Source: a virus
Lineage: Duplodnaviria > Heunggongvirae > Uroviricota > Caudoviricetes
Virus record (IMG/VR): IMGVR_UViG_2541047959_000009
DNA: 64,000 nucleotides
Direction: 5' to 3' (one strand)
The translations under genes and the position numbers were made by a program. The first letter of the stretch is position 1. Every line of letters begins with the position of its first letter. A model generated the notes under the pieces. That model searched no databases. It saw only the letters and a program-made list of their open reading frames with translations, and was not told the origin of the DNA. Shown one piece after another: positions 61,922 to 64,000 of the stretch.

Positions 61922-63054
61922 CAATCAGGAAACACCACCAGGGAGAAACGATCAATATAACTTTCACCTACAAAGGAGTTAGATGTCGTGAGCCGCTTTC
62001 CAATCTGGAAGTAACACCAAAGAACATTAAATACGCCGAGCGTACACTCGGCGAAATCCATAATAAGATCGAAAGGGGAACATTCATTTATGCAGAATAT
62101 TTTCCCCGTTCTGCTCGTTTGAAAATTTTTGGTAATGCTGCTGCAAGCAAAACGGTAAAGATGTACCTGGACGAATATCTTGAAATCTGCGAAACAAGAA
62201 AACTTTCACCCTCTACGATTGGTGGCTATAAAAAATGCCGTAGTGCGTTAGCCTCACTTCACATTTGCCCTGCAAGTGAATTAACACCAGCAACCCTGAA
62301 AGCGTGGATTCAAAGCCAGAAAACAACCTTAAAAACCATTCGCAACCAGTTATCTTTCCTACGGTCAGCACTTGATGAAGCCGTGACCGATGGGGTACTT
62401 CAAATTAACCCCGTATCGTTAGTAACAGCTTCGCGCTACCAAAGTGATAAGTCAGAAGCAGAAAGCAGCTATGTGGTTGATCCGCTATCACCAGCAGAAG
62501 TTGATGCATTACTAGCAGCAGCCGGAAACAAACAATGGGAAAATCTGTTCCGGTTCGCCATACATACAGGCCTGCGTAGTTCTGAATTATGTGCCCTACG
62601 ATGGCATGATATCGACTTTGTTGGAAAAACAGCCCATGTTCAGAGCGCAAGTGTTGTCGGAGTTATCAAAGGAACAAAGACAAAAGCCGGTACCCGTAAA
62701 GTTGAACTGACTGAAGAAGCAATGTTGGCGTTGATAAACCAGAAGCCATTTACATTCATGAAGGATGCTACTGTCTTTGAAGATCCAAAGACCAATAAAC
62801 CCTGGGCAAGTGCTGATGCAATTAGGAAAAAAGCATGGGTGCCAACATTGCGAAAAGCAGGTATTCGTTACAGAAACCCATATCAAACCAGGCATACATT
62901 CGCCACCAGCCATATCAGCCGGGGAGCAAACCTGTTTTGGCTTGCGGCTCAAATGGGCCATAAAGGGCCTGAAATGTTATTCAGGCACTATGGACAATAC
63001 TTGAAAGAGTATGATGGGAGGGCAAGTATCAAGGATAAAAAGGCTTTATTTTAA
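61882..63054 (+). CDS. int: Tyrosine integrase (lambda-type)
   Basis: 390-aa ORF; C-terminal R...HxxRHT...Y pattern (TRHTFATS, RHYGQY). Confidence 0.85.
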   Translation: MGQTKLLKLPRGVTIRKHHQGETINITFTYKGVRCREPLSNLEVTPKNIKYAERTLGEIHNKIERGTFIYAEYFPRSARLKIFGNAAASKTVKMYLDEYLEICETRKLSPSTIGGYKKCRSALASLHICPASELTPATLKAWIQSQKTTLKTIRNQLSFLRSALDEAVTDGVLQINPVSLVTASRYQSDKSEAESSYVVDPLSPAEVDALLAAAGNKQWENLFRFAIHTGLRSSELCALRWHDIDFVGKTAHVQSASVVGVIKGTKTKAGTRKVELTEEAMLALINQKPFTFMKDATVFEDPKTNKPWASADAIRKKAWVPTLRKAGIRYRNPYQTRHTFATSHISRGANLFWLAAQMGHKGPEMLFRHYGQYLKEYDGRASIKDKKALF

Positions 63055-63663
63055 GTCATTATGCCAATCGTCTACTGTTTGAAACCAAATTTTTAACCTT
63101 TGCATAAAGGTACGATCCTTTTTGGGAGGGTGGTACCTTTGAAAAGAAGTATGTAACGCTTCGATAACTCCCATACAAGCATCAATTACTTCTTGTGCTT
63201 TAACCGGGCGATCGGCATCTGAAAGCTTGTGAGCGACCTCACAATCCAGAGTTGCTTTCTCTAGTACAGATGAGAACACCTCGTCAGGTATATACAGTCC
63301 TCTGCTTTCCAAAATGCAAATCAGTTTGGAAACTTGTTGAGCTTTAGCCAAGATAGTTAACAAGTATGAAACAGAAGCCTTTGTTCTATCCTTTTGCAAC
63401 CTTAACAATCGATGCTTTGATGCTCTAATTTTAGGTTGAGTTGTCTGACTGAGCCAATAGTTAGAAGAAATATCAGAAATTTCAATAACTAACTTTGAAA
63501 TAGCATCAATAATTGATTTCGATTCAGAACGTGTCGCCAGTTTTACAGAATTATTGTACGCAACTCGCCATCCAATGAAAACTAAGCAGACGCTAACTAC
63601 TGTGATACACCACGAATACTGTCCTATTTGTGCTACTAATGACATTGGTTCCGTACTGATCAA
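63046..63663 (-). CDS. Hypothetical protein with N-terminal transmembrane helix (cargo next to int)
   Basis: 205-aa ORF convergent with int; hydrophobic 12-35 then helical soluble region. Confidence 0.5.
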   Translation of the reverse strand: MISTEPMSLVAQIGQYSWCITVVSVCLVFIGWRVAYNNSVKLATRSESKSIIDAISKLVIEISDISSNYWLSQTTQPKIRASKHRLLRLQKDRTKASVSYLLTILAKAQQVSKLICILESRGLYIPDEVFSSVLEKATLDCEVAHKLSDADRPVKAQEVIDACMGVIEALHTSFQRYHPPKKDRTFMQRLKIWFQTVDDWHNDLK

Positions 63664-63673
63664 CTATCGCCTC

Positions 63674-64000
63674 TTATACTCTTTCTGGTTGTGCTAAATC
63701 AATAAATTTATCAATCTGTTCTTTGTAGAACGGAACATCACTTTTTATAATCAAACGTGCTTTAACGTTGGCTTTAGGTATCCCTTCCTTACGGATGAGA
63801 CCTCCAAACGCCTCTTCTAAGAAAGAGGAACCAACACCCAGTGCTATACCGCGAAAATCAACCACAATCTCCTGTTCAGTACCCTTCAGCGCAGGCACCA
63901 AAAACTCTCTACGAAATCTTTCCGCACTGTGTGGGCTATCCGTTGTGTAACGTCCGAAAGGTGTTCTGGAGAACTCCTTCGCTATGACGATATTTCTCAT
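63674..64000 (-). CDS. Small STAS-like (DUF4325-like) protein; ATG is the last 3 nt of the window
   Basis: 108-aa ORF MRNIVIAKEFSRTPFGRY...FRGIALGVGSSFLEEAFGGL resembles STAS/DUF4325 as I recall; co-oriented with 63046-63663. Confidence 0.45.
   Translation of the reverse strand: MRNIVIAKEFSRTPFGRYTTDSPHSAERFRREFLVPALKGTEQEIVVDFRGIALGVGSSFLEEAFGGLIRKEGIPKANVKARLIIKSDVPFYKEQIDKFIDLAQPERV

What the first reader, a model, noticed from the sequence alone, without database searches (positions are those of the whole stretch)
63046..64000. Two-gene cargo next to int: STAS/DUF4325-like small protein plus single-TM protein
Two co-oriented minus-strand genes converge on the int 3-prime end, beyond the integration module. 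The 108-aa gene resembles STAS-like DUF4325 proteins and the 205-aa gene has an N-terminal TM helix. Its ATG is exactly the last three bases of the window, so promoter and any further partners are out of view. I cannot match this pair to a named system.
Basis: partly seen in the sequence, partly recalled or inferred. Interest (0 to 1): 0.6.

Follow-up and report, generated by a model that had tools for sequence, protein, structure and literature searches.

The report
Phage-borne kinase–STAS–membrane protein defence candidate
The two genes are the last two of a three-gene prophage cargo operon (a kinase-like ATPase, a small STAS partner protein and a membrane-anchored protein). It most likely works as a phosphorylation-triggered anti-phage suicide switch, and it is an untested membrane-effector cousin of the recently described VapKSC system.

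Summary
The 108-aa gene is a DUF4325/STAS-like protein, and the 205-aa gene encodes a protein with one N-terminal membrane helix and a helical cytoplasmic domain. The pair is cut by the window edge. In identical E. coli B2 genomes (UTI89) a 303-aa gene lies 4 nt upstream and encodes a STAS-like domain fused to a GHKL kinase-type ATPase with intact ATP-binding motifs.

The trio (K-S-E) fills a 2,049-bp variable slot between the integrase and attR of an ssrA-integrated lambdoid prophage. In other strains the same slot holds DarTG or PD-Lambda-5, both known defence systems. K-S-E stays together in every related locus examined: 8 of 8 genome loci and 40 of 40 viral contigs. It always sits at accessory-gene sites of temperate phages, including directly beside the cI repressor.

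The closest known system is VapKSC (Chambers et al., EMBO J 2026). There an ssDNA-activated STAS-GHKL kinase phosphorylates a DUF4325 antitoxin and releases a PIN toxin. Here the toxin position holds a membrane protein with no known relatives, and the phospho-acceptor serine is conserved.

Best reading: a kinase-gated membrane effector for abortive infection. This is a new variant of a known kind, and its function is inferred, not shown.

The parts
63046..63663 (-). E: 205-aa membrane-anchored helical protein (TTG start; alternative ATG at 63645 gives the 199-aa PGAP product WP_000060412). Proposed effector.
   Evidence: - ORF. No Pfam, NCBIfam or PADLOC hit.
- phrog_30059, function unknown.
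- One TM segment at about residues 13-37.
- AF2 pLDDT 79.7, all-helical, with a long helix 17-73 plus a bundle.
- No informative fold neighbour in PDB or BFVD.
- The family has 152 representatives at 50% identity, all small, and none has a Pfam family.
- Invariant juxtamembrane motif G31-W32...N38...L42-A-T-R-S-E-S-K49, and T138-L-D-C-E142.
63674..64000 (-). S: 108-aa STAS-like DUF4325 protein (WP_001244589). Proposed phospho-switch and antitoxin-like partner.
   Evidence: - PF14213 at E 6.2e-14.
- 151 homologues, nearly all carrying PF14213 and most 101-125 aa.
- G57-S58-S59-F60-L-E-E-A-F-G-G-L is nearly invariant. VapS S48 aligns with S58 and CapS S54 with S59.
- The S stop lies 10 nt before the E start, with AAGAGG 6 nt upstream of the TTG.
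63998..64000 (-). S start codon at the window edge. The first gene of the operon, K, lies just BEYOND the window at window-equivalent 64005-64916 (-) (window = L001 + 49799; L001 14206-15117). K is a 303-aa STAS-like + GHKL kinase-type ATPase, WP_000154254.
   Evidence: - Annotation and sequence.
- HATPase_c_2 at E 9e-5, 22.9 bits, below the cutoff of 27.4. Several homologues carry PF13581.
- Invariant N-box E155-A-x-x-N159-V-x-x-H-A-Y, G1 D201-x-G-x-G205 and G2 R242-G-x-G-x-E-D.
- AF2 pLDDT 86, pTM 0.88, with an N-terminal beta-alpha domain and a C-terminal domain.
- Foldseek PDB hits are Hsp90 N-domains and GyrB at E 5e-4 to 3e-3.
- phrog_3364 at E 8.5e-67.
- The K stop is 4 nt before the S ATG, with GGAGA inside its last codons.
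63018..64000 (.). Window part of the 2,049-bp variable cargo slot (window-equivalent 63018-65066).
   Evidence: - Homology between strains with different cargo ends at L001 13215-13218 (13218 = window 63017, 37 nt before the int stop).
- In the strains where it resumes within the stretch fetched, it does so at L001 15268-15271, the first bases of the att repeat.
- The slot holds only K, S, E and 151 bp upstream of K, which includes a promoter-like site: TTCATA-17-GATAAT at L001 15178-15150 (-).
61882..63054 (+). Prophage integrase (Arm-DNA-bind_2 + Phage_integrase), convergent with E.
   Evidence: - Pfam hits; annotation.
- A related int is present in 412 of 5426 complete E. coli genomes, against 131 that carry this cargo.
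61676..61921 (+). Small ORF upstream of and overlapping int (excisionase position).
   Evidence: ORF. Annotated as a 68-aa hypothetical protein in UTI89. No Pfam hit. The role is inferred from position only.
21944..22128 (+). attL-side copy of the 185-bp direct repeat (tmRNA 3' end plus downstream sequence). It bounds the roughly 43-kb prophage.
   Evidence: - 91% identical to L001 15269-15447 (window-equivalent 65068-65246).
- Rfam detects a tmRNA 3' fragment at both copies.
- In UTI89 the left copy is the 3' end of ssrA.

Best explanation
The two genes are the S and E genes of a three-gene, self-promoted prophage cargo operon, K-S-E.
- K is a cytoplasmic STAS-like + GHKL serine-kinase-type ATPase.
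- S is a free-standing DUF4325/STAS protein with a conserved Ser-Ser at the canonical phospho-acceptor position.
- E is an N-out/C-in single-pass inner-membrane protein with a roughly 165-residue helical cytoplasmic domain.

Proposed mechanism, by analogy with VapKSC:
1. In the lysogen, unphosphorylated S binds the cytoplasmic domain of E and holds it inactive.
2. Infection by another phage produces a cue. By analogy this is single-stranded DNA sensed between the STAS and GHKL domains of K.
3. The cue activates K, which phosphorylates S on S58 or S59.
4. Phospho-S lets go of E. E then self-associates in the membrane and collapses membrane integrity or potential, aborting the infection. This would be a RexAB-like outcome reached through a partner-switch.

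Shown here: the gene content, domain identities, motif conservation, strict K-S-E synteny, residence in phages, and location in a slot that elsewhere carries validated defence systems.

Inferred: kinase activity on S, S-E binding, the trigger, E toxicity, and anti-phage function.
For: 1. Operon structure. The K stop is 4 nt from the S start, and the S stop is 10 nt from the E start. Shine-Dalgarno-like sequences lie in front of S and E. A promoter-like site sits inside the swapped segment.
2. Domains. S is PF14213. K has invariant N, G1 and G2 boxes, a sub-threshold HATPase_c_2 hit, and a confident AF2 model whose C-terminal domain matches GHKL folds.
3. Link to VapKSC. VapS is also PF14213 at E 2.7e-17. 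The S-family profile scores VapS at 19 bits. The VapS and CapS phospho-serines align with the nearly invariant S58/S59. K aligns collinearly with VapK over 235 columns with N, G1 and G2 in register, at hhalign E 0.01. VapKSC is a K-S-toxin operon giving about 2 logs of protection, lost in S48A, D28A and F54A mutants (PMC13373217).
4. Synteny. K-S-E is adjacent in 8 of 8 genome loci down to 31% K identity and in 40 of 40 IMG/VR viral contigs. The same holds in Acinetobacter, an alphaproteobacterial integrative element, and Salmonella and Klebsiella prophages. The third gene has an N-terminal TM helix in 8 of the 9 genome loci and both distant loci tested by hydropathy.
5. Defence context. The int-attR slot is exactly this cassette. 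In other strains it carries DarT-NADAR (DarT E 2e-13) or PD-Lambda-5 (B subunit E 6e-124). GmrSD lies on the other side of attP.
6. Position beside cI. In a Pasteurella lambdoid phage the trio sits directly downstream of and co-oriented with the cI-like repressor. Phage KIRK of Francisella has a 293-aa protein, a 112-aa DUF4325 protein and a 125-aa TM protein next to CI (PMC7924643). This is the position of rexAB in lambda (established knowledge).
Against: - No experiment exists on this family.
- No PADLOC v2 model matches any of the three proteins.
- K is only very remotely related to VapK (9.4 bits, G1 to C-terminus only; hhalign probability 4%). The common mechanism therefore rests on architecture rather than close homology.
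- S lacks the C-terminal extension by which VapS blocks VapC.
- E has no resemblance to any known pore-former or toxin.
- The STAS assignment of the K N-terminal domain rests on the predicted secondary-structure order and a weak in-register match (hhalign E 0.004, probability 8%).
- The trigger is pure analogy.
- No phosphatase to reset S is encoded in the slot.
- One strain carries an IS3 between S and E without evident loss of E. That is not what one expects if E without S were strongly toxic, although E may simply be unexpressed there.
Confidence: 0.55

Rival explanations
1. It is an anti-phage or superinfection-exclusion module wired differently. E would be the membrane sensor or blocker, for example detecting or obstructing DNA injection at the inner membrane as Sie/Imm-type proteins do. 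K would be the output, phosphorylating phage or host proteins, and S would be its inhibitor or partner-switch antagonist as in SpoIIAA/SpoIIAB.
For: - It shares the phage-cargo and defence-slot context of the main model.
- E's most conserved residues cluster right at the cytoplasmic face of the membrane (G31, W32, N38, R45, E47), which fits a signalling or interaction surface.
- E resembles no known pore-former.
- In canonical partner switches the GHKL protein is itself the inhibitor of the output (established knowledge of SpoIIAB and RsbW).
Against: - The only characterised relatives (CapKS, VapKSC) use K purely as a signal-activated kinase of S, with output through whatever S binds.
- K has no extra domain for substrate recruitment.
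- Single-TM proteins placed last in defence operons are usually effectors (general knowledge, not tested here).
Confidence: 0.17
2. It is not an immune system. It would be a lysogen-expressed regulatory or addiction module: either a toxin-antitoxin-like trio that stabilises the prophage, or a damage-responsive switch that alters host membrane physiology or prophage induction or lysis timing.
For: - VapKSC and CapKS respond to DNA damage in general, and the authors stress that the line between stress response and immunity is blurred.
- The cassette sits next to int/xis, or next to cI, where induction-linked functions also reside.
- There is no hit to any defence model.
Against: - The slot is interchangeable with DarTG and PD-Lambda-5, not with induction or lysis genes.
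- The trio also occurs at terminase-, lysis- and tail-fibre-adjacent accessory-gene sites and outside prophages, for example on the Acinetobacter chromosome next to a PvuRts1I-like restriction gene.
- It carries its own promoter, oriented away from the phage regulatory circuits.
Confidence: 0.15
3. It is a classical sigma-factor partner-switching module (anti-sigma kinase plus anti-anti-sigma) that controls transcription, with E as a membrane-bound regulator.
For: - A GHKL kinase with its best Pfam match to the SpoIIAB-type family HATPase_c_2.
- The best PDB sequence match, to RsbW, is not significant (E 0.75).
- The partner is a STAS protein.
Against: - The 2,049-bp slot holds only K, S and E. 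No gene annotated as a sigma factor or PP2C phosphatase lies in any annotated or gene-called neighbourhood inspected.
- E has no anti-sigma or sigma-like Pfam match.
- The distribution is restricted to mobile elements.
Confidence: 0.04

Closest known systems
VapKSC anti-phage toxin-antitoxin system (Chambers, Rani, Min, Villa, Corbett, EMBO J 2026; PMC13373217)
   Same: - Three-gene operon in the order kinase, STAS protein, output protein.
- The kinase is STAS + GHKL of about 300 aa with no HTH (VapK 296 aa, K 303 aa).
- The middle protein is a PF14213 DUF4325 member of about 110 aa in both, with the phospho-acceptor Ser conserved.
- Both are found near other defence genes.
   Different: - The third gene is a single-pass membrane helical protein, not a VapC/PIN nuclease.
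- S lacks the C-terminal inhibitory helix of VapS.
- K is only remotely similar to VapK (9.4 bits; hhalign E 0.01), so this is a separate clade.
- This family is overwhelmingly phage- or prophage-borne (40 IMG/VR contigs).
- Activity has not been tested.
CapK-CapS transcriptional regulators of immune operons (same paper)
   Same: A GHKL kinase with an internal STAS domain, plus a STAS-domain substrate phosphorylated on a conserved serine. CapS S54 aligns with S59 here.
   Different: - CapK has an N-terminal HTH and CapS a C-terminal wHTH DNA-binding domain. K and S here have neither.
- CapKS controls a downstream operon. Here nothing lies downstream except E.
Lambda RexAB (and similar prophage abortive-infection pairs with a membrane effector)
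   Same: - Expressed by the prophage, with a cytoplasmic sensing component plus a membrane protein.
- In Pasteurella and Francisella phages the trio occupies the slot next to cI, where lambda carries rexAB.
- The proposed outcome is the same: loss of membrane potential.
   Different: - No sequence or fold similarity. No PADLOC model of any kind, RexAB or other, matched.
- E has one TM helix, whereas RexB has four (established knowledge).
- Control here would be by phosphorylation of a STAS protein.
SpoIIAB-SpoIIAA / RsbW-RsbV partner-switching modules
   Same: A GHKL serine kinase fold with N, G1 and G2 boxes, and a STAS partner with a Ser at the start of helix 2.
   Different: - No sigma factor and no PP2C phosphatase.
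- The kinase carries its own STAS-like domain.
- A membrane protein is the third partner.
- The module is located on mobile elements.

Membership tests
Pfam PF14213 DUF4325 (STAS-like) | Score above the Pfam gathering threshold (23 bits) | tested here: met
   The 108-aa protein scores 51.9 bits, E 6.2e-14, covering profile positions 1-58 of 64. Nearly all listed homologues carry PF14213.
VapKSC | First gene encodes a STAS + GHKL kinase homologous to VapK | tested here: inconclusive
   The architecture is the same. Sequence similarity is marginal: hhalign E 0.01 with probability 4%, and the HMM scores 9.4 bits over the G1-to-C-terminus region only.
VapKSC | Second gene encodes a small STAS (DUF4325) protein with a conserved phospho-acceptor Ser/Thr | tested here: met
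   Both proteins are PF14213 members. S58/S59 are nearly invariant and align with VapS S48.
VapKSC | [quoted passage not shown] | tested here: not met
   S ends at residue 108 with the last STAS helix. It has no extension.
VapKSC | Third gene encodes a VapC-like PIN nuclease toxin | tested here: not met
   The third gene has no PIN or any other Pfam hit. It is a single-TM helical protein. The E profiles score VapC at zero bits or below.
VapKSC | Protects against phage; kinase activated by ssDNA | not testable with these tools
   This needs plaque assays and in-vitro kinase assays.
CapK-CapS regulators | HTH at the N-terminus of the kinase and a wHTH DNA-binding domain after the STAS domain of the substrate | tested here: not met
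   K starts directly with the beta-alpha STAS-like domain. S is 108 aa with no extra domain.
SpoIIAB/RsbW-type sigma partner switch | GHKL N, G1 and G2 ATP-binding boxes | tested here: met
   Invariant E155, N159, H163, D201, G203, G205, R242, G243, G245, E247 and D248 in 28 sequences.
SpoIIAB/RsbW-type sigma partner switch | Cognate sigma factor and PP2C phosphatase in the module | tested here: not met
   The slot contains only K, S and E. No gene annotated as either lies in the neighbourhoods inspected.
Known or candidate defence systems in PADLOC-DB v2.0.0 | Match to any of the 5027 models | tested here: not met
   No hit for K, S or E, even at E up to 1-10.
Prophage int-att defence hotspot cargo | Occupies a sharply bounded slot that holds different, known defence systems in related prophages | tested here: met
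   The borders are at L001 13218 and 15268. Alternative cargos are DarT-NADAR, PD-Lambda-5, a ParA trio, a pair of hypothetical proteins, and an IS.

The most novel reading that the evidence does not exclude
K-S-E would be a previously unrecognised class of phage-encoded immunity in which a partner-switch (a GHKL kinase phosphorylating a STAS protein) directly gates a new type of single-helix membrane effector. Alternatively, E could be a membrane sensor of incoming phage DNA or envelope damage that signals inward through K and S. Either way it would be a phosphorylation-controlled functional analogue of RexAB. It would also show that the CapK/VapK-type kinase-STAS pair is a general, portable trigger coupled to unrelated effectors (DNA-binding, nuclease, membrane).
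Probability: 0.3. Interest if true: 0.72.

Novelty: new variant of a known kind. Interest (0 to 1): 0.58.

Why it matters
- It would add a third output class, a membrane effector, to the kinase-STAS signalling pair described only in 2026. That would strengthen the idea that this pair is a modular trigger in bacterial immunity.
- It would assign a function to three 'unknown function' phage protein families (phrog_3364, phrog_5816-like and phrog_30059). The K and S searches returned about 150-160 matching 90%-identity clusters each, and the exhaustive E search returned 152 representatives at 50% identity.
- It would explain a piece of prophage cargo carried by 131 of 5426 complete E. coli genomes, including the pathogenic strains UTI89, S88, APEC O1, IHE3034 and NU14 and the type strain ATCC 11775. 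That matters for phage-therapy host range.
- It pinpoints a cleanly bounded int-attR hotspot in ssrA-integrating lambdoid prophages. At least two further uncharacterised cargo sets there (127+271 aa; ParA+137+221 aa) are ready-made defence candidates.

Tried and rejected
- Pfam, NCBIfam and PADLOC on E gave nothing. Pfam on 51 diverse E-family members gave only three isolated hits, each in one member at E about 0.005.
- Foldseek of the E model found only generic helical bundles in PDB (best E 0.2). In BFVD the best hit was one unnamed 159-aa viral protein at E 8e-3. The AFDB50 library was unavailable.
- PDB sequence searches gave no VapS or CapS match for S and only an RsbW N-box match (E 0.75) for the K profile. 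Relatedness to VapKSC therefore had to be tested with sequences taken from the paper's appendix.
- I looked for a HEPN-like Rx4-6H motif in E by eye. It is absent.
- tblastn of K against 50,697 sequenced phages found nothing. Among plasmids there were only two records, one of which is really a circular lambdoid phage.
- I looked for a tRNA as the att site and found none. The site is the tmRNA 3' end.
- I first assumed the whole window was collinear with UTI89. That is wrong for window 1-21930.
- My first synteny script under-counted S and E because ORF starts were over-extended. It was corrected.
- hhalign of the K N-terminal domain against the S family gave only a weak in-register match. The 'STAS' label for that domain stays provisional.
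Full report
**1. What is in the sequence**

The two ORFs exist as described. S is 63674..64000(-), 108 aa. E is 63046..63663(-), 205 aa from a TTG that has AAGAGG 6 nt upstream; PGAP prefers the ATG at 63645, giving 199 aa. S matches Pfam PF14213 (DUF4325, STAS-like) at E 6.2e-14. E matches nothing in Pfam, NCBIfam or PADLOC. E has a single hydrophobic segment at about residues 13-37, followed by basic residues (R33, K41, R45, K49). This predicts an N-out/C-in single-pass topology (and direct reading). AlphaFold2 with 25 homologues gives an all-helical model with pLDDT 79.7: one long helix (17-73) running from the membrane into a helical bundle. E and the integrase gene (61882..63054 +) converge and overlap by 9 nt.

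**2. The window cuts the operon**

The right part of the window (21931-64000) is 99.98-99.99% identical to E. coli UTI89. In UTI89 a 303-aa gene (K, WP_000154254) ends 4 nt before the S start codon, with a GGAGA inside its last codons. After it come 860 bp of non-coding DNA and then the chromosomal gene glaH.

K gives a sub-threshold hit to HATPase_c_2, the SpoIIAB-type GHKL family (E 9e-5, 22.9 bits against a cutoff of 27.4). Several homologues carry that Pfam assignment. An alignment of 28 homologues down to 41% identity shows invariant ATP-binding boxes: N-box E155-A-x-x-N159-V-x-x-H163-A-Y, G1 D201-x-G203-x-G205 and G2 R242-G-x-G245-x-E-D.

The AF2 model is confident (pLDDT 86, pTM 0.88). 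It has two domains: an N-terminal alternating beta-alpha domain (residues 1-120) and a C-terminal alpha/beta domain. Foldseek places the model among GHKL folds, namely Hsp90 N-domains and GyrB, at E 5e-4 to 3e-3 and probability up to 0.99. The N-terminal domain has the strand-helix order of a STAS domain. It aligns weakly but in register with the S family ('VIVDLSKV' against 'VVVDFRGI'; hhalign E 0.004, probability 8%), and one UniRef entry of the family is named 'STAS domain-containing protein'. I treat 'STAS-like' for this domain as likely but not proven.

**3. It is prophage cargo in a sharply bounded, variable slot**

A 185-bp direct repeat (91% identity) links window 21944-22128 with the sequence 151 bp upstream of K (L001 15269-15447, window-equivalent 65068-65246). 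Both copies contain a tmRNA 3'-end fragment. In UTI89 the left copy is the 3' end of ssrA itself. The roughly 43-kb lambdoid prophage is therefore integrated at ssrA, and K-S-E lies inside it, between int and attR.

I compared UTI89 with seven E. coli strains that have a related integrase but different cargo.
- Homology stops at L001 13215-13218 (13218 = window 63017, 37 nt before the int stop).
- Where it resumes within the fetched stretch, it does so at L001 15268-15271, the first bases of the att repeat.
- The variable slot is therefore 2,049 bp. It holds only K, S, E and their 151-bp upstream region, which includes a well-placed promoter-like site. The regional count of such sites is not above chance.
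- The cassette has lower GC (36-47%) than the flanking core genes (about 55%).

The related integrase occurs in 412 of 5426 complete E. coli genomes. This cargo occurs in 131, all at 99% identity or more. In the same slot other strains carry:
- DarT plus a NADAR antitoxin (UMNF18; DarT E 2e-13);
- PD-Lambda-5 (JJ1886; B subunit E 6e-124);
- a ParA-like protein plus two unknown proteins;
- two unknown proteins of 127 and 271 aa;
- only an IS.

Two of the alternatives are experimentally established defence systems, so the slot behaves as a defence hotspot. On the other side of attP the same prophage carries a GmrSD type IV restriction enzyme, a DpnII/MboI-REase-domain protein and a GIY-YIG protein.

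**4. The trio is a conserved unit of temperate phages**

- The K search returned 163 clusters, the S search 151, and the exhaustive E search 152 representatives at 50% identity.
- All 8 loci found in the one-genome-per-species collection keep K, S and E adjacent in that order, down to 31% K identity. They span Pluralibacter, Budvicia, Rouxiella, Serratia, Cognaticolwellia, an Oceanospirillaceae MAG, Enterobacter and Haemophilus.
- All 40 IMG/VR viral contigs that encode K also encode S and E directly downstream. In 16 of them an integrase like the window's converges on E within 22 nt.
- In Salmonella (52% K identity) and Klebsiella (78%) the trio is again wedged against the 3' end of the same integrase type, at different chromosomal sites.
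- Elsewhere it sits by terminase genes, between lysis and terminase genes, after a tail-fibre gene, or near a recE-like gene.
- More distant versions occur on the Acinetobacter chromosome next to a PvuRts1I-like restriction gene (371/112/186 aa) and in a small alphaproteobacterial integrative element (369/109/137 aa). Their K proteins match the K profile over full length (86 and 51 bits). Their third proteins match the broad E profile weakly (15-16 bits) and have an N-terminal TM helix.
- In a circular Pasteurella multocida lambdoid phage genome the trio lies immediately downstream of, and co-oriented with, the cI-like repressor.
- The published gene table of the inducible Francisella phage vB_FhiM_KIRK lists a 293-aa protein, a 112-aa DUF4325 protein and a 125-aa TM protein right after CI (PMC7924643). 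This is where lambda carries rexAB (established knowledge).
- All three proteins fall in PHROG families of unknown function.

**5. The closest known system**

Chambers et al. (EMBO J 2026, PMC13373217) describe two related systems.
- CapK-CapS: an HTH-STAS-GHKL kinase activated by ssDNA phosphorylates a STAS-wHTH repressor.
- VapKSC: a three-gene anti-phage toxin-antitoxin system. VapK (STAS+GHKL, 296 aa) is proposed to phosphorylate VapS (STAS plus a short C-terminal helix, 116 aa) on S48, which releases the PIN toxin VapC.

I took the sequences from the paper's appendix and tested them.
- VapS is a PF14213 member (E 2.7e-17), like S.
- The S-family profile scores VapS at 19 bits.
- VapS S48 and CapS S54 align with the nearly invariant S58 and S59 in the motif G-S-S-F-L-E-E-A-F-G-G-L.
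- K aligns collinearly with VapK with the N, G1 and G2 boxes in register, but only marginally (hhalign E 0.01, probability 4%; 9.4 bits).

The logic and domain architecture are therefore shared, while K-S-E is a separate clade. It fails VapKSC membership on a defining feature. The third protein is not a PIN nuclease but a membrane-anchored helical protein with no detectable relatives of known function. In addition, S lacks the inhibitory tail of VapS. It also fails CapKS membership, because neither protein has a DNA-binding domain. It fails as a sigma partner-switch, because no sigma factor or phosphatase is present. The paper does not mention a membrane-effector version. Two full-text searches, for DUF4325 and for GHKL+STAS+phage, and a search for the three protein accessions found no other study.

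**6. Most likely mechanism (inferred)**

1. In the lysogen, S binds and silences the cytoplasmic domain of E.
2. An infection cue activates K. By analogy the cue is ssDNA.
3. K phosphorylates S58 or S59.
4. Phospho-S dissociates.
5. E self-associates and compromises the inner membrane, aborting the infection.

I put about 0.55 on this specific wiring and about 0.75 on an anti-phage role of some kind. The rivals are listed separately with their tests:
- the same components wired with E as sensor or blocker and K as output;
- a damage-responsive addiction or regulatory module;
- a classical sigma switch, which is unlikely.

Weak points:
- No PADLOC hit.
- Very remote K-VapK similarity.
- No informative fold for E.
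- No phosphatase.
- One strain has an IS3 between S and E.

**7. Verdict**

The finding is a real, conserved, phage-borne three-gene module. It is best described as a new membrane-effector variant of the recently described kinase-STAS (CapKS/VapKSC) kind. It is an attractive, cleanly delimited candidate for experimental test, but its function is inferred from context and analogy only.

Noticed in passing
window 18932-22128: The window's left 21.9 kb is not collinear with UTI89. It ends with a second, tandem prophage: a P2/186-type CI repressor (18932-19564), an integrase (19567-20586), and a 407-aa ORF with no Pfam hit (20591-21814). That ORF lies between the integrase and the tmRNA-3'-end repeat, which is an analogous int-att cargo position.
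   Followed up: partly
window 22555-27649: Directly inside attL the lambdoid prophage carries a DpnII/MboI-REase-domain protein (22555-23343), a LEM-3-like GIY-YIG protein (23935-24741, minus strand) and a GmrSD type IV restriction enzyme (25700-27649). Both sides of attP are therefore loaded with defence-type cargo.
   Followed up: partly
window 60783-61673: A 296-aa ORF with very low GC (27-32%) and several hydrophobic segments lies between yfdR and the xis-like gene (phrog_12528, no Pfam). Related prophages carry yfdS plus a 71-aa ORF at this place instead, so it is a second variable slot.
   Followed up: partly
window 63017-63054: The homology break between cargo variants lies 37 nt inside the 3' end of int. 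The last dozen or so integrase codons are therefore exchanged together with the cargo (integrases of 388-391 aa in different strains). E and int overlap by 9 nt.
   Followed up: partly
L012 6393-7581; L013 6125-8047 (same int-attR slot in other E. coli): Two further uncharacterised cargo sets occupy the slot: a 127-aa + 271-aa pair (phrog_5176, phrog_17809), and a ParA-like protein + 137 aa + 221 aa (phrog_164, 6264, 7540). Four of these five proteins have no PADLOC match; the ParA-like protein matches only the candidate model PDC-M28B, weakly (E 2e-7). By position they are candidate defence systems.
   Followed up: partly
L030 2135-3363 (E. coli FDAARGOS_1303): An IS3-family element is inserted between S and E. 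It separates E from the K-S promoter and changes the annotated N-terminus of E.
   Followed up: no
window 63674-64000 (S) against phrog_5816: S matches positions 341-439 of a 441-position PHROG profile. In some phages the DUF4325 domain therefore appears to be the C-terminal part of a much longer protein, possibly a fusion with the upstream partner.
   Followed up: no
window 21905-21975: ARAGORN reports no tmRNA or tRNA in the window, although Rfam detects a tmRNA 3' fragment here. In this strain the fragment is an att remnant between two tandem prophages, not the ssrA gene.
   Followed up: yes
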